A DNA stretch of 64,000 bases from an uncultured Verrucomicrobiales bacterium (GTDB taxonomy: Bacteria; Verrucomicrobiota; Verrucomicrobiia; Limisphaerales; UBA1100), in the NCBI GenBank assembly GCA_964013675.1, contig CAXGXE010000001.1:5411-69410 (forward strand), read 5' to 3'. Shown piece by piece: positions 33,388-60,709 of this stretch. A program made the position numbers and the translations under genes. The notes beneath the pieces were generated by a model, which did no database searches, had not been told where the DNA came from, and was given only the letters and a program-made list of their open reading frames with translations. Each line of letters opens with the position of its first letter. The stretch's first letter is position 1.

Positions 33388-34329
33388 TCAGTTTCCGGTC
33401 AGGGCCAATATCGCCCAGCAGGTGGCACTGATGGAGATGAACTGGTCCTGACCGTGCGGAAAGCCACTTTCGAAATATTTTTGGATGGGGCGGCTGCGAG
33501 TCTTTACGTGCCACGAGCCGTCTGGCTTCTGGTTTTTGAGTAACCATTGGATACCCTTTTTAAATTGAGGCGAGTCGCTTTTTAGTAGGCCGCATTTATT
33601 GAGGGCAGTCAGGGCCTGACCAGTGGCATAGGCATCACTTTTCATCGTGGTCAACTGGGCCCAGCCACCTTCTTCGTCTTGCAGTTTGAGTAAAACCTTG
33701 GCGGCAGCTTGCGATTCCTTTTGTCGATCGGCCCAGTGTAGGCCGAGTACTTTAAAGACGTGATCCTCGGTGGTTTTTGGCTGGGCTTGGGCGATCCATT
33801 GAGCAGTTTTTTTTGCCGGCTCAGAGTTGATCATTGCTTTGATGCCTAAAGCCGTAGCGGTGAAGTGGCTATCCTCCAGTGGTGGGCGGTGGGTGCGGAT
33901 GCGCCAACTGCCGTCCGGCTTCTGGGTTTTGAGCAGGTAATTGATTAGGGCTTTCGAGGTGGGGTTGGGGGGTTCCTGTGTCGCCTGGAATTGGGCGAGA
34001 GCGTAGCCGGCAGTGTAGGCTCCACCGGGCACACCTTCCCCTTTGGGCAGACGATCCTGACGATCGGAAAAGTACTCCAGAGTAAACCGGGTTTGGGTAG
34101 TAAATGTTTTTTGCGCGACAGAAAATCCGGACCGTCGGGCCTGGCTAAGAGTCATGATGGGAAGGGCCTGATGATGGCAGGTGAAGCAATCGCGTGCTTC
34201 TACATAGGTAGCGACACTTTTTTCTATCAACAATATTGAACGCTCTACCGCACGGGTAATGGCCGGATCGGCGCCGAAGGCCATCGTCTTTAATAGTAGG
34301 CAAAGAAGAACTAAAAAAGGCTTAATCAC
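33388..34329 (-). CDS. prenyltransferase/squalene-oxidase-repeat (alpha/alpha toroid) protein with a CxxCH motif
   Basis: Repeated QxxDGSW-type segments (QKPDGSWRIRT, QDEEGGWAQ, QKPDGSWHVKT) and CFTCHHQ near the N-terminus. I set the start at the GTG at 34329, which forms a GTGA overlap with the upstream stop and yields a clean signal peptide (IKPFLVLLCLLLKTMAFGA). Confidence 0.7.
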   Translation of the reverse strand: MIKPFLVLLCLLLKTMAFGADPAITRAVERSILLIEKSVATYVEARDCFTCHHQALPIMTLSQARRSGFSVAQKTFTTQTRFTLEYFSDRQDRLPKGEGVPGGAYTAGYALAQFQATQEPPNPTSKALINYLLKTQKPDGSWRIRTHRPPLEDSHFTATALGIKAMINSEPAKKTAQWIAQAQPKTTEDHVFKVLGLHWADRQKESQAAAKVLLKLQDEEGGWAQLTTMKSDAYATGQALTALNKCGLLKSDSPQFKKGIQWLLKNQKPDGSWHVKTRSRPIQKYFESGFPHGQDQFISISATCWAILALTGN

Positions 34330-35549
34330 TGGGTAGCGGGCGCGCGGCTGGTGTGTTGGGGGTTTTGGCCACGCATAGGCCAAGGGCTTTTGGCAAGGCC
34401 CGTGGAATCTGTCTTGATGGCATAGAGCTTTTTGTTCCCATACCTGACAAAGTCCCCTGATCCCACGTAAACAGTACCATCCGCGCCGATGGCGGGTGAG
34501 GAGAACACAATGTCTTCTGATTTAAATTCCCATAGTTTTATCCCAGTCTTGCTACTGATGGCATACAGCTTTTTGTCATTTGACCCGAAGTAAACTGCGC
34601 CATTAGTGCCGATGGCGGGGGTGGAGAACACCTCACCTCCCGTTTCGAACTCCCATAACTCATCCCCGGTCTTGCCATTGAGAGCATAGAGATTGTTGTC
34701 CCCTGACCCGACGTAAACCGTGCCATCAGAGCCGATGGCTGGGGAGGAGAGCACAAGAGCTCTCGTTTCAAATTCCCATAGCTTGACCCCAGTCTTGCCA
34801 TTGATGGCGTAGAGCTTGTTGTCCAATGACCCGACGTAAACCGTGCCATCAGAGCCGATGGCGGGGAAGGAGGTCATAATACCTCCCGTTTCAAATTCCC
34901 ACAGCTTCTTCCCACTCTTACCATTGATGGCATAGAGCTTGTCGTCATATGACCCAACGTAAACCGTGCCATCAGAGCTAATGGCGGGGGTAGACAAAAA
35001 GCCTCCCGTTTTAAATTCCCATAGTTTGGCCCCAGTCTTGCCATTGATGGCGTAGAGCTTTTTGTCAGATGCCCCGATATAAACCGTGCCATCAGATCCG
35101 ATGGCGGGGGAGGAGTTCACAGAATCTCCCGTTTCAAATTCCCATTGTTTCTTCCCACTCTTACCATTGATGGCATAGAGCTTGTTGTCCAATGACCCGA
35201 CGTAAACCGTGCCATCAGATCCAATGGCGGGGGAGGATCGTACCCAACCACCCGTTTCAAATTCCCATAGCTTGATCCCAGTCTTGCCATTGAGGGCATA
35301 GAGCTTGTTGTCTAATGATCCGAAGTAAACCGTGCCATCCGAGCCGATAGCGGGAGAAGAGTATACATCACCACCCGTTTCAAATTCCCAGATAGGGGCG
35401 CGGACCTTGGCTTTGGAATCCTGATTTGTGTGCTGCCCCTCCTCCGAAAGCGGAGATTTGGTTTTACTCAGAGGTTCAGGTTCATTTTTCTCTCCACACC
35501 CGGCAGCAACGAGAATGGTAAGGAGATGCAACATCCGCATGCAGTTCAT
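34326..35549 (-). CDS. PQQ-like (BamB-like) eight-bladed beta-propeller repeat lipoprotein
   Basis: Lipobox LVAAGCGEK, then eight approximately 41-aa blades of consensus LWEFETGGxVxSSPAIGSDGTVYVGSxDNKLYAINGKTGxK. Ends with SPWPMRGQNPQHT. Confidence 0.85.
   Translation of the reverse strand: MNCMRMLHLLTILVAAGCGEKNEPEPLSKTKSPLSEEGQHTNQDSKAKVRAPIWEFETGGDVYSSPAIGSDGTVYFGSLDNKLYALNGKTGIKLWEFETGGWVRSSPAIGSDGTVYVGSLDNKLYAINGKSGKKQWEFETGDSVNSSPAIGSDGTVYIGASDKKLYAINGKTGAKLWEFKTGGFLSTPAISSDGTVYVGSYDDKLYAINGKSGKKLWEFETGGIMTSFPAIGSDGTVYVGSLDNKLYAINGKTGVKLWEFETRALVLSSPAIGSDGTVYVGSGDNNLYALNGKTGDELWEFETGGEVFSTPAIGTNGAVYFGSNDKKLYAISSKTGIKLWEFKSEDIVFSSPAIGADGTVYVGSGDFVRYGNKKLYAIKTDSTGLAKSPWPMRGQNPQHTSRAPATQ
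34400..35400 (-). repeat. intragenic tandem repeat, 8 copies, period 123 nt (one copy 120 nt)
   Basis: The marker gtaaac(c/t/a)g recurs at 34467, 34590, 34713, 34836, 34959, 35079, 35202 and 35325. Neighbouring copies share long identical stretches. Confidence 0.9.
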
Positions 35550-35749
35550 CCTATCGGCACGTCCTCGACTCGTCTATTATAAAGTAAGCAATATATTATA
35601 GTCAGCAATAACATTATCTTTTCCAAGGTTGGTGGTTTTACGTGATTCTGTATCTCAGAGAACGATTATTTTGGGCATGGGGATAACCCGTGAATTGCCC
35701 GTGTATACGAAATAATAACTGCAACTTTGCGCGCGACCTTTTTGTGGTA

Positions 35750-36158
35750 GTTTCAATCCGTTGAGCGGATCTTCGGAATCGCTCGGTCAGCCAACTGACC
35801 ACGGGGATGCGACACCTCCAGAGGAATCTTCGGATGCCAAAGGAAATGTCACCCAGCCCTCCTCCGGGAGAGCTGATTCTCTCCGGCGATGTTCTCTCGG
35901 GAACATCGCCACGGACAACTTCTTCGGAAGGAGTCCACGAGGTTCACGCCTTCGGGCAGGGATTTCGGTACGAGAGGCAGAACCAAGTCCACGGCAGGCT
36001 CCTTTCGGGGAGACTGCTACTGGGCGGTCGGAAGGCAAGTGCCCTACCAAGGGCATTGACCTTCGAGCAAAAGCTCTCTCGGGAGCGGATGCGAAAAGGA
36101 TTGGTAGCCGCCCGGCGGTTGAGCTTCGGTTCAATCCAAGGGCGGCTTTTTTGTGTTT
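35750..36158 (+). ncRNA. unassigned, hairpin-dense structured RNA element (independent ncRNA or glyQS leader)
   Basis: A chain of at least 11 hairpins on the + strand. It has seven TTCGG pentamers (UUCG-type loops), a perfect 10-bp stem at 35885-35910, a recurring CC-ACGR linker, and a terminal GC stem plus U6. No credible ORF. The 5' boundary is uncertain. Confidence 0.6.
36107..36152 (+). terminator. intrinsic terminator closing the structured element, 49 nt upstream of the glyQS ATG
   Basis: gccgccc (36107-36113) pairs with gggcggc (36140-36146). The stem is extended by an inner ttgagc-UUCG-gttcaa hairpin (36119-36134) and followed by TTTTTT (36147-36152). Confidence 0.6.
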
Positions 36159-36200
36159 TGTTGACTTTTTTGGCGGTTTTCCCGATACACTCGCCGCCTC

Positions 36201-37841
36201 ATGGCACGGGATAATTCCTTGATGGATGCGATTGTGGCGTTGTGTAAACGCCGCGGGTTTGTGTTTCAATCCTCCGAAATTTACGGGGGCTTCAGTGGTT
36301 TGTGGGATTACGGCCCGCTGGGGGTGGAATTGAAGCGTAACATCAAGGAGACGTGGTGGCGCGATATGATCACCACACACGATGAGCTGGATCAGCCCGA
36401 GGGGGCACCGCGCCGGTTCCAGATGGTGGGCATCGAGTCGAGTGTCATCATGCACCCGCGCGTGTGGAAGACTTCTGGCCATTACGATTTGTTTCATGAT
36501 GAGATGGTGGATTGCCGGGAGACCAATAAGCGTTACCGGTACGATCATGTGAAAGGCCGCTGGGTGACGCATGAGGGTCGCCGGCTTTTTGTGACCACCG
36601 TGGGGGCTGATGATTTGCAGGCGGCTCTGCAGGAACGCGCGTTACGTTTCTTTGGCCTGAAAAACAAGTATGCCGATAAGCTGGAATGGGACGGTGAGAT
36701 TGTCGATCTGCCGACGGTAAAGGATCACACCGAGGTGTTGGGCCCGGACGCCAAGGAACTCGGCTCGCTCACCGAACCGCGGGAGTTCAATCTGATGTTT
36801 GAAACGCACGTGGGCGCGATGCGCAATGACGACAACAAGGCCTTTCTGCGGCCGGAGACGGCGCAGGGGATGTTTGTGAATTTTAAGAACGTGGTGGATA
36901 GCAACCGCGTGAAGGTGCCCTTTGGCATCGCGCAGCAAGGCAAGAGTTTCCGCAACGAGATTACGCCGCGCAACTTCACCTTCCGCAGCCGCGAATTTGA
37001 GCAGATGGAGATGGAGTTTTTCTGTCACCCGGAAGAATCCTTCAAGTGGTACACCTACTGGCGCGATCGCCGGTTCAAGTGGTACACGGATTTGGGGATC
37101 GATGCCTCCAAGCTGATTCTGCGTGATCACGAGCAGGACGAGCTCTCGCATTACTCGGTGGGCACGGCTGATGTGGAGTACGCGTTTCCGTTCTGCGAGG
37201 AAGGCGAATTCGGCGAGCTGGAAGGCATCGCGCACCGCGGCGATTTTGATCTGCGCTCGCATATGGAAGGCAAGCTCGTGCGCGAAGGCGAGGAGCTGGT
37301 GGTGGAAAAGGATGCTGAGGGGAACCCGAAATACCCCGGCAGTGGGAAGGATCTTACTTTCTTCGATGACGAAACGAAGGACCGCTTTGTGCCTCACGTG
37401 ATCGAGCCGGCCGCCGGAGCGGATCGCACGGTACTGGCGTTTATTTGCAATGCCTACCATGAGGAGACCATCACCAACGAAAAGGGCAAGGAAGAGACGC
37501 GCGTGGTCATGAAGTTTCACCCGCGCATTGCGCCGTACAAGGTGGGCGTCTTCCCGCTACTCAAGAACAAGCCCGAGCTGGTCGCTAAAGCACGCGAGGT
37601 TTGTAACCTGCTGCGCCCGCACATGGCGGTGTTTTATGATGAAGGCGGCGCCATTGGTCGACGCTATCGCCGCCAAGACGAGGCCGGCACGCCTTACGGT
37701 GTGACCATCGATTTCGATACGCTCGGCGAAAACGGCGATGAGTCCAAGGACACCATCACCTTGCGTGATCGCGATACCATGGAGCAAACCCGTATGCCCA
37801 TCAGCGAGCTCCTGCCGTTTCTGCTGGAGAAAATTCGGTAG
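36201..37841 (+). CDS. glyQS: glycine--tRNA ligase (class II, homodimeric alpha2 type)
   Basis: N-terminal RRGFVFQSSEIYGG...WDYGPLG, motif 2 FRNEITPRNFTFRSREFEQMEMEFF, and motif 3 region EPAAGADR. 546 aa. Confidence 0.95.
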   Translation: MARDNSLMDAIVALCKRRGFVFQSSEIYGGFSGLWDYGPLGVELKRNIKETWWRDMITTHDELDQPEGAPRRFQMVGIESSVIMHPRVWKTSGHYDLFHDEMVDCRETNKRYRYDHVKGRWVTHEGRRLFVTTVGADDLQAALQERALRFFGLKNKYADKLEWDGEIVDLPTVKDHTEVLGPDAKELGSLTEPREFNLMFETHVGAMRNDDNKAFLRPETAQGMFVNFKNVVDSNRVKVPFGIAQQGKSFRNEITPRNFTFRSREFEQMEMEFFCHPEESFKWYTYWRDRRFKWYTDLGIDASKLILRDHEQDELSHYSVGTADVEYAFPFCEEGEFGELEGIAHRGDFDLRSHMEGKLVREGEELVVEKDAEGNPKYPGSGKDLTFFDDETKDRFVPHVIEPAAGADRTVLAFICNAYHEETITNEKGKEETRVVMKFHPRIAPYKVGVFPLLKNKPELVAKAREVCNLLRPHMAVFYDEGGAIGRRYRRQDEAGTPYGVTIDFDTLGENGDESKDTITLRDRDTMEQTRMPISELLPFLLEKIR

Positions 37842-43133: not shown

Positions 43134-44420
43134 GTGAAAACCCTTTACCTCGATATTTTTAGCGGCATCAGTGGCGACATGTTTCTGGGAGCCATGATCG
43201 ATCTGGGCGTGGATTTTGATGCGCTGGATATAGAGCTGAAGAAGCTCAAACTGGAGGGCTACACACTCAGTGCCAATCGCCGGCAAAAATGCGCCATTGA
43301 TGGGGTGAAGTTTGATGTGCATTTGGCGGCCGGCGGCGAAGGCGATCATGACCACAGTCATTCGCATGATCATTCTCACGAACACAGTCACTCGCACGAA
43401 CATTCCCATGAGCACAGTCATGGAGGCGATGATGGTCACGGACACAGCCGAAATTTTGCGCAGATCTCGGAGATGATCCACGCCAGTACCCTGAGTGATT
43501 GGGTGAAGGAGAAGTCGGTAGCCGTGTTTCAACGCGTGGCCAATGCCGAGGGCAAGATTCATGGGATGCCGCCTTTTGAGGTGCACTTTCATGAGGTGGG
43601 TGCGGTGGATTCCATTGTCGATATCGTGGGCGGCTGTATTGCGCTGGAACTTTTGGGTAAACCACGCGTGCGCAGCGGGCCGGTCATTGAGGGCACCGGG
43701 TTTATCATGTGCGCCCATGGCCGCTTTCCCATTCCCGCACCGGCGACACTCAATATTCTCGCTGAACGCGGTGTAGCCATTACCCAGTGTGAGGAACCCA
43801 ATGAACTCATTACCCCGACAGGTGCGGCCTTGATTGCTGAATTTGCTGAGGACTTTGGGCCCTTGCAAAATCTCACGCCTGAGAAGGTCGCCTTTGGGTT
43901 GGGCACACGCGATTGTGAAACGCGCCCCAACGTTCTGCGTGCGGTGTTGGGCGAGGAAACCGCATCAACATCCGGCAATGATTGGGAGACGGATACCATT
44001 GCGGTTTTGGAAACCAACCTTGATGATATTAGTTCAGAAGTCTTGGGCGACTTTGTGGAACGCGCACTGAAAGCCGGCGCACTGGACGTGGTGCACACGC
44101 CCATTCAGATGAAGAAGAACCGGCCGGGGGTACAGCTGAGTGTCCTGTGTGCTGAAGGTGATGCGGATCAGTTCTGCGAAATGATCCTGCGCGAGACCAG
44201 CGCCTTTGGTGTGCGCCGTACCTTAACTGAACGCCGCAAGCTCCAGCGCGAGACCAAGACGGTGGCTACCCCACATGGGGAAGTGACCGTGAAGTTGGGC
44301 AAACTCAATGGCGAAATCGTGCAGGTGGCGCCCGAGTATGAAAGCTGCCGCGCTATTGCGGCAAAGGCTGATGTGCCGCTAAAGGCCGTGTATGATGCAG
44401 CCGTGGCGGCGGCGCGTTAA
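43134..44420 (+). CDS. larC: nickel-pincer cofactor biosynthesis protein LarC (nickel insertion)
   Basis: N-terminal MKTLYLDIFSGISGDMFLGAMIDLG. A His-rich tract DHDHSHSHDHSHEHSHSHEHSHEHSHGGDDGHGHS (nt 43344-43448). LarC-like C-terminal domain. It starts 15 nt after the M90 gene. Confidence 0.9.
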   Translation: MKTLYLDIFSGISGDMFLGAMIDLGVDFDALDIELKKLKLEGYTLSANRRQKCAIDGVKFDVHLAAGGEGDHDHSHSHDHSHEHSHSHEHSHEHSHGGDDGHGHSRNFAQISEMIHASTLSDWVKEKSVAVFQRVANAEGKIHGMPPFEVHFHEVGAVDSIVDIVGGCIALELLGKPRVRSGPVIEGTGFIMCAHGRFPIPAPATLNILAERGVAITQCEEPNELITPTGAALIAEFAEDFGPLQNLTPEKVAFGLGTRDCETRPNVLRAVLGEETASTSGNDWETDTIAVLETNLDDISSEVLGDFVERALKAGALDVVHTPIQMKKNRPGVQLSVLCAEGDADQFCEMILRETSAFGVRRTLTERRKLQRETKTVATPHGEVTVKLGKLNGEIVQVAPEYESCRAIAAKADVPLKAVYDAAVAAAR

Positions 44421-44427
44421 TTGGGTT

Positions 44428-44922
44428 TTATTCCCTCGTGGATGTGCGGCCGGTGTGTTGTGCATTCTGCCCAAACATTGGCCAAGGGCTTTTGGCGGGG
44501 CCTTTGGAATCGGTTTTGATGGCATAGAGCTTGTTGTCATCTGACCCGACGTAAACCGTGCCATCAGAGCCGATGGCGGGGGGGGACCACACATCACCTC
44601 CCGTTTCAAATTCCCATAGCTTGACCCCACTCTTGCCATTGATGGCATAGAGCTTGTTGTCAATTGACCCGACGTAAACCGTGCCATCAGAGCCGATGGC
44701 GGGGGAGGACCCCACCATACCTACCGTTTCAAATTCCCATAGCTTGCCCCCTACGGTTGTCTTGGCTTTGGTTGGCTCATTCGGACGTGCATTTGACAAT
44801 GCTTCCACCTCAGCTTCCCACGCTTTGTTTCGAGCATCTAATTCTTCTGATAGTTTTTTCGCATCTGATCTTCCACACCCCATCACCAAGAATAGAGCCA
44901 AACCAATCATCACAGCTTTCAT
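44428..44922 (-). CDS. two-blade PQQ-like repeat lipoprotein (short paralogue of 34326..35549)
   Basis: Lipobox LVMGCGR, a coiled linker, and only two LWEFET...GSDGTVYVGS.DNKLYAI blades. It has the same C-terminal AKSPWPMFGQNAQHTGR tail as the long paralogue. Confidence 0.7.
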   Translation of the reverse strand: MKAVMIGLALFLVMGCGRSDAKKLSEELDARNKAWEAEVEALSNARPNEPTKAKTTVGGKLWEFETVGMVGSSPAIGSDGTVYVGSIDNKLYAINGKSGVKLWEFETGGDVWSPPAIGSDGTVYVGSDDNKLYAIKTDSKGPAKSPWPMFGQNAQHTGRTSTRE

Positions 44923-45863: not shown

Positions 45864-48800
45864 ATGCGATGTTGGATCTCCATCGCGGTGTTTTCTGTCG
45901 CCTGCAATGTGTTTGCCGCCCCGGATTTTAGCCGGGACGTTTTGCCTATTCTTTCGGATACCTGTTTTACCTGCCACGGTCCCGATGCTAACGCGCGTAA
46001 AGCTAAGCTGCGTTTGGATGTGGAGGCGGATGCCAAGCAGGAAGTTATTATTCCGGGTAAAAGTGCAGAGAGCGAAATCATCGCGCGCATTTTTTCAGAG
46101 GATGCGGATGAACTCATGCCGCCGCCGGAATCGAATCTCAAACTAACCGCAGCCCAAAAGGCTACGCTCAAGGAATGGATCGATGCGGGTGCCAAGTGGG
46201 GTAAGCATTGGGCGTATGAAACTCCCAAACCCGTGGCCCTACCAAAAGTGAAGCTGGCCGACTGGCCGCGTAGTGGAATCGATAACTTTATTCTGGCGCG
46301 ATTGGAGCGGGAAGGTTTGAAGCCTTCCAAGGCAGCGGATCGGATTACATGGTTGCGCCGAGTAACTTTGGATCTCACTGGATTACCCCCCACTTTGGTC
46401 GAAGTGGATGCTTTCCAGAAAGACAAATCTCCCAAGGCATTTGAAACAGTGGTCGACCGCCTTTTGGCTTCACCGCGTTATGGCGAGCGTATGGCTTGGG
46501 ATTGGCTCGAGGCCGCAAGGTATGCCGATAGCAATGGGTATCAGGGTGATCGCGAACGAACCATGTGGCCGTGGCGTGATTGGGTGGTTCGCGCCTTCAA
46601 TGCCAATCAGCCGTACAACGATTTTACCGTGGAACAGATCGCCGGCGACCTGCTGCCGAATGCAACGGAGGAGCAGGTGCTGGCGACGGGCTTCAATCGT
46701 AACCACATGATCAACGGCGAAGGTGGCCGTATCGCAGCAGAAAACCGTGTGGAGTATGTTTTTGATCAGACTGAAACGGTCGGCACGGTTTGGATGGGAC
46801 TGACCTTTAATTGCTGCCGCTGCCATGATCATAAGTTCGACCCGATCAGTCAGCGTGATTACTTCAGCATGTATTCTTTCTTTAATCAAACGCCGGTGAA
46901 TGGTGGTGGTGGAGATCCAGCAATGGCGCCCAATATTCAGGTGGGCACACCGGAGCAGAAAAAGGAGATTGCCGGTCTCGAGCAAAAGATCGCCGCGTAT
47001 ACGAAAGCCATCGCCGCCCGACGCGCGGTATTGGCACAAGGGCAGGCGAAGTGGGAAGCGGAGCAGTTGAAGCGCGGATCAGCCTCGGCGTGGACGTCAC
47101 TGAAACCCATCGCCGCCCGCGCGCAGCAGCAGACTTTGGAATTGCTGCCGGATCAATCCGTGCTGGCGAAAGGCAAGCTGCCCGATCGCGATGAGTATGC
47201 GGTGCAAATGGCCGCGGGCGTGAAACCGTTTCGTCATGTGCGGTTGGAGGCATTGCAGCATGCGAGTTTGCCTGCGGGCGGGTTGAGCCGCGTGAAAGGC
47301 GGCAACTTTGTGCTAACGGATTTCAAGATAATGATCGAGAGCACGGGTTCCGAACCAAAGGAATTGAAGCTAACGGGCGCTAAATCGACATTCAATCAGG
47401 GCGGCCTTGATGTGAAACAGGCGATTGATGACAACGCCGGTAGTGGATGGGGAGTATGGCCGGGGCAGCAAGGTGTTAAGCAGGCACACACGGCAATATT
47501 CACGCTTGCTGAACCTGCGGTGGAAAAAGCTGGCACCAAGTTGACGGTTCTCATGAAATTTAATCACTCGGCTAAGCAGCATGTAATGGGACGGTTTCGC
47601 GTGTCCGTTTCTAATGCAGGCGAGCCGGACTTTGGTTCAGGCGAATTACTGACAGCGCTGCAGGCTGAGCCCGCCAAACGTACGGTGGCTATGAAGGAGA
47701 TAGTCAGCAAAGCCTACAGTTTGAATGACCCTGAATTGCGCCGGTTGCAAACCGAGACAGATGCCGCGAAAAAACGCATCAACGATTTGCGCAAAGCGTT
47801 CCCCAAAGTGATGGTGATGCGTGATGGGACCAAGCGCGAAACGCGCGTGCTCATCCGCGGTGTGTACAACAAGCCTACGGACATCGTGGTGAGCAGTAAC
47901 ACGCCGGAGAGTTTGCCGCCGTTACCAGAAGATGCTCCGCGCAACCGGTTGGGATTGGCGGAGTGGCTGGTCAATCCCAAGCATCCGTTGACCGCTCGTG
48001 TGACGGTTAACCGGATCTGGCAGCAGTTCTTTGGTACGGGATTAGTGAAGACCACCGAGGATTTTGGTGTGCAAAGTGAACGGCCGAGTCATCCGGGTTT
48101 GCTTGACTGGCTGGCGCAGGAATTTGTTTCCGATAACTGGAACGTCAAGAGGCTGCATCGACGGATCTTGCTGAGTGCAACCTACCGCCAAAGCTCAGCG
48201 GTGACATCTGCGTTGCACGAGCGCGATCCGGAAAACCGGCTGCTGGCACGTATGACACGCTACCGGTTGCCTTCGTGGATGATTCGTGATCAGGCCCTGG
48301 CGATAAGCGGACTGTTGGTGGAAAGGATGGGAGGGCCTCCAGTGAAGCCTTATCAGCCGCCGGGCGTTTGGGCCGAAAGCACGTTTGGCAAAAAACGCTA
48401 CGCACAGGACAAAGGCGAAGCTTTGTATCGACGTAGTCTTTATACTTTCTGGCGGCGGATTGTGGGGCCCACGATGTTCTTTGATGAAGCCAAACGCCAG
48501 ACCTGTGAAGTGCGCCGCGCGCGGACGAACACGCCGCTGCATGCATTGATCACCCTCAACGATGTTACCTATGTAGAAGCCGCCCGCGCAATGGCCCAGC
48601 GGGTTCTTCACGAAGGCGGAGTCGATGACGTAGCCCGCGTGGCGTATGCCTTTCGCCTAGCGACTGCCCGCCCGCCATCCGCAGAGGAAGCGGTCGTGCT
48701 GCGTCAGCGCATCCAGCAATTGCGCGTCACCTACGCTGCCAAACCTGAGGCTGCGCAGGAGTTGTTAAAGGTCGGCGAACATGTCCGCGACGAAACTCTT

Positions 48801-58690: not shown

Positions 58691-59329
58691 ATGAAAAAAC
58701 CACTCATCGTACTCACTCTGCTGCTGAGCCTGAGCCTCAACGCGGTCGCTGAGGAGAAAGGCTTCAAGCCCCTTTTCAACGGTAAGGATTTCACCGGTTG
58801 GGCCGGCCCGATTGACAACTATCAGGTCACCGACGGCACTATCCAGTGCAAGCCCGGCAAAGGCGGCACCATCTACACCAAGGACAGCTACGACGATTTT
58901 GTCGTGCGCTTGGAGATCAAGCTGCCCGAAGGCGGCAACAACGGTCTTGCCATTCGGTACCCCGGCAAGGGCGACACCGCCTACGTGGGCATGTGCGAAT
59001 TGCAGGTGCTCGACAACACTTCTAAGAAATACTCCAAGCTTCACCCGGCGCAGTACCACGGCAGTGCTTATGGTATGGTCGCCGCCAAGCGCGGGTTCCT
59101 CAAAAAACCGGGCGAATGGAACACCCAGGAAGTCACCGTGAAAGGCCACACCATCAAGGTCGTGCTCAACGGCGAAACCATCCTTGATGCGGACCTGAGC
59201 AAGGTGGAGAAATCCATGGCGCCCATTGCCAAGTACAAGGGTCGCCTGCGCACCGAGGGCCACTTTGGCTTCGCCGGACACGGCGCAGCGGTGCAGTTCC
59301 GCAATGTGCGCATCAAGCGCCTGAAGTAA
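58691..59329 (+). CDS. DUF1080 (3-keto-disaccharide hydrolase-like) domain protein
   Basis: Signal peptide, FNGKDFTGW, and C-terminal GHFGFAGHGAAVQFRNVRIKRL. It starts 1 nt after its paralogue. Confidence 0.85.
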   Translation: MKKPLIVLTLLLSLSLNAVAEEKGFKPLFNGKDFTGWAGPIDNYQVTDGTIQCKPGKGGTIYTKDSYDDFVVRLEIKLPEGGNNGLAIRYPGKGDTAYVGMCELQVLDNTSKKYSKLHPAQYHGSAYGMVAAKRGFLKKPGEWNTQEVTVKGHTIKVVLNGETILDADLSKVEKSMAPIAKYKGRLRTEGHFGFAGHGAAVQFRNVRIKRLK

Positions 59330-59351
59330 GCGCGGGAAGAATCAAACTCAC

Positions 59352-59401
59352 GAACGGCGGCAGTGCGGCTATCCCCCCGCCTGTCGCCGTTCTTGTTTTT
59401 T
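59352..59401 (+). terminator. putative intrinsic terminator of the DUF1080 pair, embedded in the 3' end of the convergent gene
   Basis: 12-bp stem gaacggcggcag / ctgtcgccgttc (one G-U pair) with a 17-nt loop, followed by TTGTTTTTT. Confidence 0.5.
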
Positions 59402-60709
59402 CTGGGCCAACAACTGCTGACAGCCGTTGGCCATGTTCTGGTAAATCATAAACGACTCATCCGCCGCCAGCTTCTCTCTCACCAGCTCACTTAACGCATC
59501 CTTGCGCAGCGAGATCAATTCTTTCTCCAATTCATCCACGCACTCCTCATTCTCGCGCAACCGGCCAATGATGCTTTCAATCGCCTGATAATACTTATCA
59601 ATCCGATCCTTCCGTTTCTGCAGTAACCACTTGCGCACGCCACTCCCCAGACCCCAGAGAAGAATGCAGGCGGACAAAATAAAACCCATGGCCTCCGCGT
59701 ACTTCACCAGAAAGCCCGGTTCATCACGCCGGAAAAATTGTTCGGCCCCCACGTGAGTGGGAAATTGCAGCCGGGCGGTGGCCTGTGACTCATCCAAGTT
59801 ACTGAAAGCCGAATGCTTTTGTGACAACACCGCACGATGCTCAAAGATTGTGCGTGTAATTGTCTCGGCCAATTCTTCAGGCAACTCGCGATGACAGGTG
59901 AGCACGGCTTTCACGCCCACCGTGGGGATGGGTCGGATGGGATGGCCGGGTTTGCCATCGGCTCCCGGGTAGGCGAGTAACGGCAACGTGTGCGGAGTGA
60001 CATGCGGATAATGAACACGGAACCCCTCCGCCAACGTTTCGGCCCAAGTGCCGGCATGCGACCAATCCGAATCGGGAGCTGTGACCAGTGGCGTCAATTG
60101 CACTTTACCTGATTGCAACGCCTGCGCGCAGGCTGCATTGCCAAGACCGGTCAGAAACAGCAAAGCGTCCACTTCCCCGGCGACCAGTTGCCGCGTGGCC
60201 TCGGCCAAGGACAGGTTTTTTAAATTCAATTCGGTTACAGGCAGGCCGAGGTACTGGAAAAGTTCATGAGTGAACTGCTCGGATCCGCTGCCTTTGGGGC
60301 CGACTGCAATGGTGTGTTCGGCCAGATCATGCAGGGATTGGATGCCGGCATCGCGGTGGCAAAGGAAGTGCAGTAATTCCGGATGAATGGCGGAGAGACT
60401 GCGGGCTTGTGCACCGGCTTGCGTGTCATTTTGCAGCAGCGCCAGATCGGCATTCCGGTTTTGCAGGCGTTGAGCATTGTCCAAACTACCGTCCGTCTCA
60501 ATTACCTCAATGCGCAAGCGCGGATGGGCGGCTTGGAGTTCCGTGGCCAGATGCTGCGCGAGCTCGTGGTACAATCCTCCGCGCTGACCGGCGGCAAACA
60601 CCAGCCGTTGTTCCTCAGGCAGCAACCATCGCTGGCCCATAAATCCAACCAGCAATGCGCCCAGAACACCAAAGCCGATTAACCATTTGCGAAGAGATTC
60701 GTTTTCCAT
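59369..60709 (-). CDS. TAXI-family (TRAP-type) solute-binding domain protein, membrane-anchored, with C-terminal TM and coiled coil
   Basis: N-terminal TM, a TAXI-like core (FAAGQRGGLYHELAQHLA...IETDGSLDNAQRLQNRNADLALLQND), a second TM (FILSACILLWGLG), and an approximately 90-aa helical tail. Confidence 0.65.
   Translation of the reverse strand: MENESLRKWLIGFGVLGALLVGFMGQRWLLPEEQRLVFAAGQRGGLYHELAQHLATELQAAHPRLRIEVIETDGSLDNAQRLQNRNADLALLQNDTQAGAQARSLSAIHPELLHFLCHRDAGIQSLHDLAEHTIAVGPKGSGSEQFTHELFQYLGLPVTELNLKNLSLAEATRQLVAGEVDALLFLTGLGNAACAQALQSGKVQLTPLVTAPDSDWSHAGTWAETLAEGFRVHYPHVTPHTLPLLAYPGADGKPGHPIRPIPTVGVKAVLTCHRELPEELAETITRTIFEHRAVLSQKHSAFSNLDESQATARLQFPTHVGAEQFFRRDEPGFLVKYAEAMGFILSACILLWGLGSGVRKWLLQKRKDRIDKYYQAIESIIGRLRENEECVDELEKELISLRKDALSELVREKLAADESFMIYQNMANGCQQLLAQKKQERRQAGG

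What the first reader, a model, noticed from the sequence alone, without database searches (positions are those of the whole stretch)
35750..36158. Hairpin-dense ~400-nt structured RNA of unknown family immediately upstream of glyQS
About 650 nt of non-coding DNA lies between the PQQ-propeller gene (start 35549, minus strand) and glyQS (ATG 36201). From about 35750 the + strand reads as an almost uninterrupted chain of hairpins.
- 35763-35784: gagcg...c[UUCG]g...cgctc.
- 35785-35800: ggtcag/ccaa/ctgacc.
- 35823-35838: c[UUCG]g loop.
- 35867-35884: ggagag/ctgatt/ctctcc.
- 35885-35910: perfect 10-bp stem ggcgatgttc/gaacatcgcc.
- 35913-35936: ggac-aa-cttc[UUCG]gaag-ga-gtcc.
- 35941-35984: ggttc...gaacc, enclosing gcc[UUCG]ggc.
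- 35994-36017: gcag..ctccu[UUCG]gggag..ctgc.
- 36028-36066: tcggaagg/ccttcga, enclosing 36040-36055 tgccct/acca/agggca.
- 36073-36086.
- 36107-36152: the terminator.
The pentamer TTCGG occurs 7 times in about 400 nt, where roughly 0.4 would be expected for a random 5-mer. UUCG-type loops only make sense if the + strand is the transcript. Hairpins are joined by a recurring CC-ACGR linker (ACGG/ACGA at 35801, 35911, 35937, 35991). GGATGCGA occurs at 35805 and 36087, and its GGATGC core once more at 35833. I could not match the element to RNase P, tmRNA, 6S, SRP, the glycine riboswitch or a canonical T-box. It is therefore a candidate for a new large structured RNA, either a glyQS leader or a stand-alone ncRNA.
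Basis: partly seen in the sequence, partly recalled or inferred. Interest (0 to 1): 0.85.

Follow-up and report, generated by a model that had tools for sequence, protein, structure and literature searches.

The report
New hairpin-rich noncoding RNA family
The 393 bases in front of the glycine-tRNA-ligase gene of this marine Verrucomicrobiales bacterium look like a self-contained gene for a heavily folded RNA that fits no catalogued RNA family, has shorter and longer relatives in other marine metagenome contigs, and does not appear to regulate its neighbour.

Summary
Window 35760-36152 (+) is the most over-folded stretch of the 64 kb window. It is a chain of about 11 local hairpins, most capped by UUCG, and it ends in a strong intrinsic terminator.

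- **No known family:** Rfam 15 and ARAGORN give no match for it or for its homologues.
- **Not a glyQS leader:** Relatives with 78-89% identical GlyRS lack it but keep the glyQS promoter-like block. In the window that block lies downstream of the element's terminator. Diverged homologues sit next to unrelated genes.
- **How homologues were found:** I translated a spurious ORF across the element and searched protein databases. This gave L161 (390 nt), L160 (235 nt), L162 (237 nt) and L159 (246 nt).
- **What is shared:** All share a promoter-like block, two 5' hairpins, a 3' core with a possible ACCA/UGGU pseudoknot, and the terminator. The middle hairpin array varies.
- **Evidence for selection on the fold:** Base pairs covary. 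Within the species, 12 of 13 substitutions at paired sites keep pairing on the + strand. The ORFs carry stop codons in some strains.

Verdict: a new stand-alone structured ncRNA family of unknown function. My guess, by inference only, is an RNA-protein scaffold.

The parts
35685..35694 (+). Conserved upstream block AACCCGTGAA, about -75 from the RNA start. It is the outer edge of the conserved promoter-like region.
   Evidence: Kept in the window, L161, L162 and L159 while sequence further upstream is unrelated. In strain L144 homology to the window starts at about 35640, with unrelated DNA before it.
35705..35720 (+). Conserved A/T-rich block ATACGAAATAATAACT. It is either an UP-element-like sequence or a regulator site (inference).
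   Evidence: Identical or near-identical in all five lineages. Among the 164 fetched loci it occurs only upstream of this RNA. In the window there is one exact copy and one unrelated 3-mismatch match at 46043-46058.
35743..35751 (+). Extended -10-like TGTGGTAGT. The homologues have TGTGATAAT, TGTGATAGC and TGTGATAGG. The predicted start is about 35758-35760.
   Evidence: Invariant in 13 same-species copies, whereas 35756-35759 just downstream are hypervariable. It aligns with the same motif in the homologues at a fixed distance from the conserved GTTGAGCG. The transcription start is inferred, not measured.
35760..36152 (+). The RNA gene: 393 nt, from GUUGAGCG to the terminator U-tract.
   Evidence: Fold z -6.6. 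Top outlier of the window. 13 near-identical copies plus 4 diverged homologues of 235-390 nt with the same ends. No Rfam family.
35763..35784 (+). H1: a 9-bp hairpin with one mismatch and a UUCG loop. Part of the conserved 5' module.
   Evidence: Present in all five lineages. Pair 9-20 appears as GC, GU and AU, and the A x A mismatch becomes C-G in three lineages. On its own this is not statistically significant.
35785..35800 (+). H2: GGUCAG / NCAN loop / CUGACC. The stem sequence is invariant.
   Evidence: The stem is identical in five lineages. The loop is CCAA, CCAG or UCAA.
35803..35859 (+). H3: a long irregular hairpin tipped by c[UUCG]g at 35828-35833.
   Evidence: 96.7-100% of cells paired across its three segments in the window types plus L161, with one pair changed on both sides. 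It is much shorter in L159, L160 and L162.
35867..35967 (+). H4-H7: the expansion array present only in the long forms. H4 35867-84, H5 35885-910, H6 35913-36, H7 35938-67.
   Evidence: Absent from the 235-246 nt homologues. In L161 the stems are kept through changes on both sides: two pairs in H5, three in H6, two in H7. H4 is kept with a one-base register shift, which I read by hand from the alignment.
35987..36025 (+). H8: a three-tier hairpin with a UUUCGG tip.
   Evidence: Three pairs changed on both sides in L161 and 97.8% of cells paired. A UUCG-capped hairpin occupies the same place in L159, L160 and L162.
36026..36061 (+). 3' core, first part: helix 36026-30/36057-61 enclosing H10 (36039-45/36050-56) with the invariant loop ACCA (36046-49).
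   Evidence: In five lineages the H10 pair 28-35 is CG three times and UA twice. The outer pair 14-41 is AU, GC and GU. The alternative pairing CCUU/AAGG (36060-63/36096-99) is also possible.
36067..36092 (+). H11: a hairpin of variable sequence inside the 3' core.
   Evidence: Five pairs changed on both sides across the lineages.
36096..36105 (+). Invariant single-stranded AAGGAUUGGU. UGGU (36102-05) is complementary to the ACCA loop, so it is a pseudoknot candidate.
   Evidence: GGAUUGGUAGCCGCCCGGC is identical in all lineages. Because both partners are invariant, pairing cannot be tested by covariation (helix 3).
36106..36152 (+). Intrinsic terminator: invariant outer stem AGCCGCCC/GGGCGGCU, inner UUCG hairpin 36117-36136, then U6.
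   Evidence: The inner hairpin covaries, with three pairs changed on both sides. The outer stem is invariant and a U-tract follows it in all lineages.
36161..36200 (+). Not part of the RNA. This is the glyQS promoter-like block: TTGACT, 17 nt, GATACA, then CTCGCCGCCT.
   Evidence: Conserved in relatives L084, L085 and L086, which lack the RNA. The spacer sequence varies between them. It lies downstream of the RNA terminator.

Best explanation
Window 35760-36152 (+) is a stand-alone gene for a structured noncoding RNA of a family that is not in Rfam.

**Architecture.**
- It appears to be transcribed from its own conserved promoter-like region: an extended -10-like motif at 35743-51 and conserved upstream blocks reaching about -80.
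- It ends at its own intrinsic terminator (36106-36152), upstream of the separate glyQS promoter-like block.
- The family has a conserved core: 5' hairpins H1 and H2, a 3' domain with hairpin H10 (ACCA loop), the invariant GGAUUGGUA, and the terminator.
- The middle is a variable array of UUCG-capped hairpins. This array makes the RNA 235 to 394 nt long in different lineages.

**Shown here.** Structure, homologues, covariation, independence from glyQS, and absence of coding signal.

**Inferred.**
- The transcription start.
- That the RNA acts in trans as a folded molecule, most likely as a scaffold that binds a conserved protein or other partner through its invariant core, while the hairpin array is a tolerated or stabilising peripheral expansion. 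I put this specific mechanism at only about 0.3.
For: **The fold is exceptional.**
- Fold z -5.4 to -6.6, and the top + strand outlier of 425 sliding windows.
- Strand asymmetry: TTCGG 7 against CCGAA 0.

**Not coding.**
- No Pfam match.
- Stop codons arise in both + frames in some strains. Nonsynonymous to synonymous counts are 14:9 and 16:7.

**No known family.** Rfam at gathering and E-value thresholds, and ARAGORN, find nothing.

**Selection on the + strand structure within the species.**
- 13 substitution events fall at 236 paired positions, and 12 of them keep a standard pair. These are mostly C to U opposite G, plus one G-C to U.G double change.
- 14 events fall at 157 unpaired positions.

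**Homologues and covariation.**
- Diverged homologues L159, L160, L161 and L162 share the ends and the promoter-like block.
- Full-length alignment A3: 97.5% of cells paired. 11 pairs changed on both sides, against 2.1 +/- 1.3 in shuffles (0 of 500 reach 11) and 0-5 in slid controls.
- 3' core alignment A4, five lineages: 10 such pairs against 4.0 +/- 1.4 (0 of 500) and 0-3 in slid controls.

**Independence from glyQS.**
- L004, L084, L085 and L086 (GlyRS 78-89% identical) have only 30-210 nt upstream of glyQS and no element.
- The TTGACT-17-GATACA block is conserved in L084, L085 and L086 and lies after the terminator in the window.
- Neighbours of the homologues are GYF/RHS genes and a DUF1501 gene. 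In one strain of the same species the upstream neighbour is a sulfatase.
Against: - No expression data. The promoter, the start site and the very existence of the transcript are inferred from sequence.
- Only five lineages are available. Four were found through called ORFs, which is an ascertainment bias. A3 is in effect one pairwise comparison, window type against L161.
- The most conserved parts (H2, ACCA/UGGU, the outer terminator stem) do not vary. Their pairing and the pseudoknot are therefore untested.
- No partner protein or target is identified, so the scaffold mechanism is a guess based on the pattern of conserved core and variable periphery.
- The distribution in the clade is unknown. 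Close relatives could lack the RNA altogether, which would argue for an accessory rather than a core role.
Confidence: 0.8

Rival explanations
1. It is a cis-acting leader of glyQS: T-box-like, another attenuator, or a riboswitch. The terminator at 36106-36152 would gate read-through into glyQS.
For: - It sits directly upstream of glyQS on the same strand, with a terminator 49 nt before the ATG.
- UUGGUAGCCGCC loosely resembles the T-box sequence UGGUACCGCG (my own reading of the sequence).
- GGGCGG at 36021 duplicates the 3' arm of the terminator, so an alternative pairing is conceivable (sequence).
Against: - No T-box or glycine riboswitch match in Rfam, even at E up to 10.
- Relatives with 78-89% identical GlyRS lack it.
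- The conserved glyQS promoter-like block lies downstream of the terminator.
- Homologues L160, L161 and L162 are followed by unrelated genes.
Confidence: 0.03
2. It is a trans-acting regulatory RNA. It would act either as a CsrB/RsmZ-like sponge that titrates an RNA-binding protein through repeated motifs, or as a base-pairing sRNA using the conserved single-stranded AAGGAUUGGUA.
For: - About 390 nt, a chain of hairpins, a terminator, and its own promoter-like region.
- GGA occurs 17 times, against about 7 expected.
- Repeated 8-mers are enriched.
- An invariant unpaired A-rich GGA segment lies next to the terminator.
Against: - No hairpin loop contains GGA. All loops are UUCG, CUCG, CCAA or ACCA.
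- The repeated GGAUGC and CCACGR motifs are not conserved in L161.
- By my own reading of the L160 sequence, GGA is not enriched in that short form.
- In L161 the stems, not the loops or linkers, are what is preserved.
- No CsrB, RsmX, RsmY or RsmZ match in Rfam.
Confidence: 0.12
3. It is an RNA, or a DNA site, that belongs to a flexible genomic island or mobile element and arrived upstream of glyQS by insertion or recombination.
For: - It is absent at this locus in close relatives.
- It lies exactly at the edge of a strain-variable region. The upstream PQQ gene is 76-92% identical between strains and is replaced by a sulfatase in L144, while the RNA and glyQS are 98-99% identical.
- L159 joins a different 5' half to the window-type 3' core.
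- One homologue lies next to an RHS-repeat gene.
Against: - None of the loci shows an integrase, transposase, terminal inverted repeat or target-site duplication.
- No match in phage, plasmid or viral collections.
- This reading explains location, not function, and is compatible with the best explanation.
- L159 is a 630-nt contig of low coverage and may be an assembly chimera.
Confidence: 0.1
4. It is not a functional RNA. It would be a chance GC-rich palindromic spacer, a REP or MITE-like repeat, or a small protein gene (the 135 or 153 aa ORFs).
For: - Long + strand ORFs cross it.
- Gene callers produced proteins from it in some metagenomes.
Against: - No other copy or similar hairpin exists in the window or in 1.2 Mb of fetched loci.
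- Stops and a near-neutral nonsynonymous to synonymous ratio in the ORFs.
- Compensatory changes and pair-preserving polymorphism.
- The fold is an outlier.
Confidence: 0.02

Closest known systems
T-box leader RNA (Rfam RF00230), for example the Bacillus glyQS leader
   Same: - Lies upstream of an aminoacyl-tRNA synthetase gene on the same strand.
- Has several hairpins and ends in an intrinsic terminator.
- Has a UGGU element just 5' of the terminator that could pair with an ACCA sequence.
   Different: - No covariance-model match.
- The ACCA is in the RNA itself (H10 loop), not in a tRNA.
- The homologues are not next to aminoacyl-tRNA synthetase or amino-acid genes.
- glyQS has its own promoter-like block after the terminator.
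- Close relatives lack the element.
CsrB/RsmX/RsmY/RsmZ protein-sponge RNAs
   Same: - A stand-alone gene with its own promoter and terminator.
- Up to about 390 nt, built as a string of hairpins with repeated short motifs.
- Length varies between lineages.
   Different: - GGA motifs are not in the loops.
- The repeated motifs are not conserved in the full-length homologue.
- It is the stems that are conserved, through compensation.
- No Rfam match.
Housekeeping structured RNAs with a conserved core and variable peripheral helices (RNase P RNA, tmRNA, SRP RNA, 6S RNA)
   Same: - Similar size class and many UUCG-capped helices.
- Invariant core segments beside helices that expand, shrink or covary.
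- An independent transcription unit.
   Different: - No match to any of their Rfam models or to ARAGORN.
- The 5' and 3' ends do not pair in a supported closing helix.
- The hallmark motifs are absent: the P4 sequences, the tRNA-like domain and tag ORF, the helix 8 GGAA loop, and the central bubble.
Large orphan structured RNAs found by comparative genomics (OLE, GOLLD, HEARO, ROOL, raiA)
   Same: - Found in uncultured or metagenomic bacteria.
- Complex multi-helix fold, function not obvious from context, lineage-restricted.
   Different: - No sequence or structure match to them.
- Smaller than OLE, GOLLD and ROOL.
- No associated protein gene, unlike HEARO with IscB.
- Known from only five lineages so far.

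Membership tests
T-box leader (RF00230) | Matches the T-box covariance model (Stem I, T-box sequence, antiterminator) | tested here: not met
   cmscan with permissive filters, E up to 10, on window 35550-36260 and on L159-L162 gave no T-box hit. The gathering-threshold scan of the whole window gave 0 hits.
T-box leader (RF00230) | Sits in the 5' leader of aminoacyl-tRNA synthetase or amino-acid genes in homologous loci, with no promoter between terminator and gene | tested here: not met
   L160, L161 and L162 are followed by unrelated genes. A conserved promoter-like block lies between the terminator and glyQS. Relatives lack the element.
T-box leader (RF00230) | Specifier loop presenting the cognate codon (GGC) and a UGGN bulge that pairs with the tRNA 3' end | tested here: inconclusive
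   An invariant UUGGUA precedes the terminator. However, it is complementary to the RNA's own ACCA loop, and no Stem I or specifier architecture was recognised. tRNA binding is not testable with these tools.
Glycine riboswitch (RF00504) | Matches the glycine aptamer model upstream of glycine metabolism genes | tested here: not met
   No hit at E up to 10.
CsrB/RsmZ-type sponge RNAs | Many GGA motifs exposed in hairpin loops or single-stranded linkers, conserved among homologues | tested here: not met
   The loops are UUCG, CUCG, CCAA and ACCA. The GGAUGC motifs are not conserved in L161. No Rfam match.
RNase P RNA, tmRNA, SRP RNA, 6S RNA | Match to the family covariance models; for tmRNA, a tRNA-like domain plus tag ORF | tested here: not met
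   Rfam gave 0 hits at gathering and only unrelated weak matches at E up to 10. ARAGORN found no tRNA or tmRNA in the window.
REP/BIME or MITE-type intergenic repeats | The same palindromic unit recurs at many intergenic sites; MITEs have terminal inverted repeats and a target-site duplication | tested here: not met
   nhmmer of the element against the window and all loci finds only the orthologous copies. The repeat finder shows no terminal inverted repeat or ordered flanking duplication.
Large orphan RNAs (OLE, GOLLD, HEARO, ROOL, raiA) | Match to the family covariance model | tested here: not met
   Assuming these families are in Rfam 15, the scans gave no hit.
Protein-coding gene | An open frame kept across strains, with an excess of synonymous change or a recognisable domain | tested here: not met
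   Both + frames have premature stops in some strains. Nonsynonymous to synonymous counts are 14:9 and 16:7. No Pfam domain.

The most novel reading that the evidence does not exclude
This is a previously undescribed class of medium-to-large structured RNA in marine Verrucomicrobiales.
- It has an invariant, possibly pseudoknotted core.
- It carries a modular cassette of UUCG-capped hairpins that is gained, lost or exchanged between lineages (235 to 394 nt), possibly even by recombination inside the gene.
- The core would work as part of an unknown ribonucleoprotein or as a catalytic or ligand-binding RNA.
Probability: 0.6. Interest if true: 0.75.

Novelty: categorically new. Interest (0 to 1): 0.7.

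Why it matters
**Scientific interest.**
- Structured bacterial RNAs of more than 200 nt with conserved cores are few. Those understood so far are ribozymes, ribonucleoprotein scaffolds or large assemblies.
- A new family from an abundant, uncultured marine clade would add a candidate to that short list.
- It comes with an unusual natural experiment. Short and long forms differ by a four-hairpin cassette, which shows directly which parts are core and which are dispensable.

**Caution for annotation.**
- An RNA that sits in front of an aminoacyl-tRNA synthetase gene and ends in a terminator is not necessarily a leader.
- Gene callers repeatedly turn this RNA into hypothetical proteins.

**Limit of the claim.** It is new at the level of RNA family. 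Whether the mechanism is new is unknown.

Tried and rejected
**Searches that found nothing useful.**
- Rfam at gathering threshold on the whole window, and at E-value threshold on the region and on four homologues: nothing.
- ARAGORN: nothing.
- blastn in distant mode against the phage and plasmid collections: only chance matches of about 30 nt.
- Four viral-contig pattern scans: only matches inside coding sequence.
- nhmmer with the 3' core profile over 1.2 Mb of fetched loci: no further members.

**Anchors that did not lead to the RNA.**
- GlyRS-anchored genome scan: only one close relative, L004. The rest were distant phyla, and none carries the element.
- GlyRS homologues at 83-89% identity: no element upstream of glyQS.
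- The PQQ propeller as a synteny anchor: useless, because it is a repeat family without clear orthologues.
- Metagenome DNA pattern built on the CCACG linkers and UUCG loops: 57 loci, of which 51 were Gly/Ala-rich coding noise and 6 were the same species. The pattern relied on linkers that later proved to be lineage-specific.

**Structural ideas that failed.**
- The minimum-energy closing helix 35756-62/36084-90 is broken by strain polymorphism.
- The 5'-3' long-range helices and CCGGGAGAGCU/AGCUCUCUCGG are broken in L161.

**Readings rejected.**
- CsrB-like sponge: rejected on loop content and lack of motif conservation.
- Protein-coding: rejected.

**Not done.** I did not build a covariance model. 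All caps for searching public collections were already used, so a model could only have been run on loci already held.
Full report

Yes. Between the start of the PQQ beta-propeller gene (35549, - strand; Pfam PF13570/PF13360) and the glyQS ATG (36201) lie about 650 nt without a credible gene.

The + strand of 35740-36160 folds at -190.1 kcal/mol (z = -5.4). The stretch 35760-36153 folds at -187.3 (z = -6.6). In a scan of the whole window with 300-nt windows, regressed on G+C, the element is the strongest + strand outlier (residual z -4.56). It is much more stable on + than on - (-149.9 against -133.6 kcal/mol).

TTCGG occurs 7 times, where the window's own frequency predicts about 0.6. Its complement CCGAA occurs 0 times. 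All nine hairpin loops of the minimum-energy fold are tetraloops: CUUCGG five times, UUUCGG, UCUCGG, CCAA and ACCA. The recurring CCACG and GGATGC words are there. Short internal repeats are enriched: 14 repeated 8-mer pairs against 2.4 in shuffles, with 0 of 1000 shuffles reaching 14.

**2. Known families.**

Rfam 15 gives no hit at gathering thresholds anywhere in the window. At E up to 10 with permissive filters it gives only unrelated weak matches on the region. The same holds for four diverged homologues. ARAGORN finds no tRNA or tmRNA. There is no match in the phage, plasmid or viral-contig collections.

**3. Not a protein.**

Three ORFs cross the element: 153 and 135 aa on +, and 261 aa on -. 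None has a Pfam match. Among 13 same-species copies, both + frames acquire stop codons in some strains. Nonsynonymous to synonymous counts are 14:9 and 16:7.

**4. Not a glyQS leader.**

The exact GlyRS protein occurs on contigs that also carry the element at 98-99.5% identity (L001-L003, L087, L088). The next relatives are L084 (89% identical GlyRS), L085 (87%), L086 (83%) and L004 (78%). They have only 30-210 nt upstream of glyQS and no trace of the element.

L084, L085 and L086 do share with the window a block TTGACT, 17 nt, GATACA, CTCGCCGCCT immediately before the start codon. The hexamers are conserved and the spacer varies, as expected of a promoter. In the window this block (36161-36200) lies after the element's terminator. 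So glyQS appears to have its own promoter, and the element is a separate unit placed upstream of it.

**5. Finding homologues.**

What worked was translating the spurious 153-aa ORF and searching the protein collections. Gene callers had made "proteins" out of homologous RNA loci, and their contigs could be fetched.

This gave the following.
- L161: 390 nt, full length. nhmmer aligns it to the window from end to end, with many substitutions.
- L160: 235 nt.
- L162: 237 nt.
- L159: 246 nt. Its 3' third and its glyQS are identical to the window, but its 5' half and centre differ.
- L164: a same-species variant.

All start with GUUGAGCG and end with AAGGGCGGC plus a U-tract. Cluster look-ups show that the window type has been seen on at least 30 marine metagenome contigs, including Tara samples.

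Gene neighbours differ. L161 lies between a GYF-domain gene and an RHS-repeat gene. L162 lies next to a DUF1501 gene. L160 is followed by an unrelated ORF. In strain L144 the upstream gene is a sulfatase instead of the PQQ propeller.

**6. Anatomy.**

*Upstream.* The five lineages share AACCCGTGAA (about -75), ATACGAAATAATAACT (about -55 to -40), CTTTG, and an extended -10-like TGTGRTARN, all at a fixed distance from GUUGAGCG. Similarity stops at about -80. The A/T-rich block occurs nowhere else in the fetched loci. In the window its only other match is an unrelated one with 3 mismatches.

Within the species, the -10-like motif is invariant while 35756-35759 just after it are hypervariable. 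This fits a start at about 35758-35760, which is an inference.

*The RNA.* It has four parts.
- Hairpins H1 and H2. The H2 stem is invariant.
- A variable middle. The short forms have two UUCG-capped hairpins there. The window and L161 have six (H3 to H8). H4-H7 (35867-35967) are the extra cassette.
- A conserved 3' core. It comprises helix 36026-30/36057-61, H10 with its invariant ACCA loop, the variable hairpin H11, and the invariant AAGGAUUGGUA.
- The terminator, with an invariant outer stem and a covarying inner UUCG hairpin.

UGGU (36102-05) is complementary to the ACCA loop (36046-49). That makes it a pseudoknot candidate, but it cannot be tested because neither side varies.

**7. Is the structure under selection?**

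*Between lineages.* On the full-length alignment, a model of local hairpins has 97.5% of cells paired. 11 pairs changed on both sides, against 2.1 +/- 1.3 in shuffles (0 of 500 reach 11) and 0-5 when partners are slid. On the 3' core in five lineages there are 10 such pairs, against 4.0 +/- 1.4 (0 of 500) and 0-3 when slid.

The long-range helices that single-sequence folding proposes are broken in L161 or by strain polymorphism. These are the 5'-3' closing helix and CCGGGAGAGCU/AGCUCUCUCGG.

*Within the species.* 13 substitution events fall at 236 paired positions, and 12 keep a standard pair. They are mostly C to U opposite G, which would be A.C mismatches on the other strand, plus one G-C to U.G double change in L164. 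14 events fall at 157 unpaired positions.

*Caveats.* There are only five lineages. The full-length comparison is in effect one pair. The homologues were found only where an ORF had been called.

**8. What the recurring motifs are.**

The CCACGR linkers and the GGAUGC(GA) words are not kept in L161. They are lineage-specific and probably left over from internal duplication. This, together with loops that never contain GGA, argues against a CsrB-like sponge.

**9. Location.**

The RNA sits at the edge of a strain-variable region. The RNA and glyQS are 98-99% identical between strains. The PQQ gene is 76-92% identical and is replaced in L144, where homology begins at about 35640. L159 may show recombination inside the gene, or it may be an assembly chimera (630 nt, coverage 2.5). 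No mobile-element genes or termini were seen.

**10. Verdict.**

This is a stand-alone structured ncRNA gene of a family not in Rfam, with a conserved core and a modular hairpin expansion. Its function is unknown. The pattern of invariant core and compensating or dispensable periphery is what ribonucleoprotein scaffolds and other housekeeping RNAs show. That is my preferred, explicitly inferred, mechanism (about 0.3).

The glyQS-leader reading is essentially excluded by context. Expression has not been shown and is the first thing to test.

Noticed in passing
window 34326-35549 (-) and 44428-44922 (-): The PQQ/beta-propeller gene upstream of the RNA is built from 7.6 tandem DNA copies of a 123-nt unit (79% matches). 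A second gene at 44516-44751 carries the same unit at 92%. This gene is the strain-variable neighbour: 76-92% identical between strains, and replaced by a sulfatase in L144.
   Followed up: partly
window 36161-36222: The glyQS promoter-like block TTGACT-17-GATACA ends only about 11 nt before the ATG at 36201. The mRNA would be nearly leaderless, unless the true start is the second ATG at 36222, which some database entries use (540-aa forms). The block is 100% identical in all same-species copies that reach it and is conserved in L084, L085 and L086.
   Followed up: partly
window 35897-35911 and 36171-36185: The 3' arm of hairpin H5 (TCGGGAACATCGCCA) is 87% complementary over 15 nt to the spacer of the glyQS promoter-like block (TGGCGGTTTTCCCGA) (I2). 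The spacer is not conserved in relatives, so this may be chance.
   Followed up: no
L159 1-630: This contig joins a short-form 5' half of the RNA and a different promoter-region sequence to a window-identical 3' core and glyQS. The switch is at about window 36040. It is either a natural recombinant allele or an assembly chimera across the conserved core.
   Followed up: partly
window 35763-35770 / 36083-36090, 35785-35800 / 36026-36061, and 36021-36026 / 36140-36145: Several exact repeats create mutually exclusive pairings. GAGCGGAU occurs at both ends. GGUCAG/CUGACC of H2 resembles the 3' core helix. GGGCGG upstream duplicates the 3' arm of the terminator. This could mean alternative conformations, or only duplication history.
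   Followed up: no
protein collections (P0241-P0274): Gene callers have deposited at least seven clusters of hypothetical proteins of 64-156 aa that are translations of this RNA. These are mis-annotations, but they proved useful as a handle for finding RNA homologues.
   Followed up: yes
window 44251-44550 (+) and 59251-59550 (-): These are the next most over-folded 300-nt windows (residual z about -3.0). The first spans the convergent gene ends at about 44420-44428. The second was not examined.
   Followed up: no
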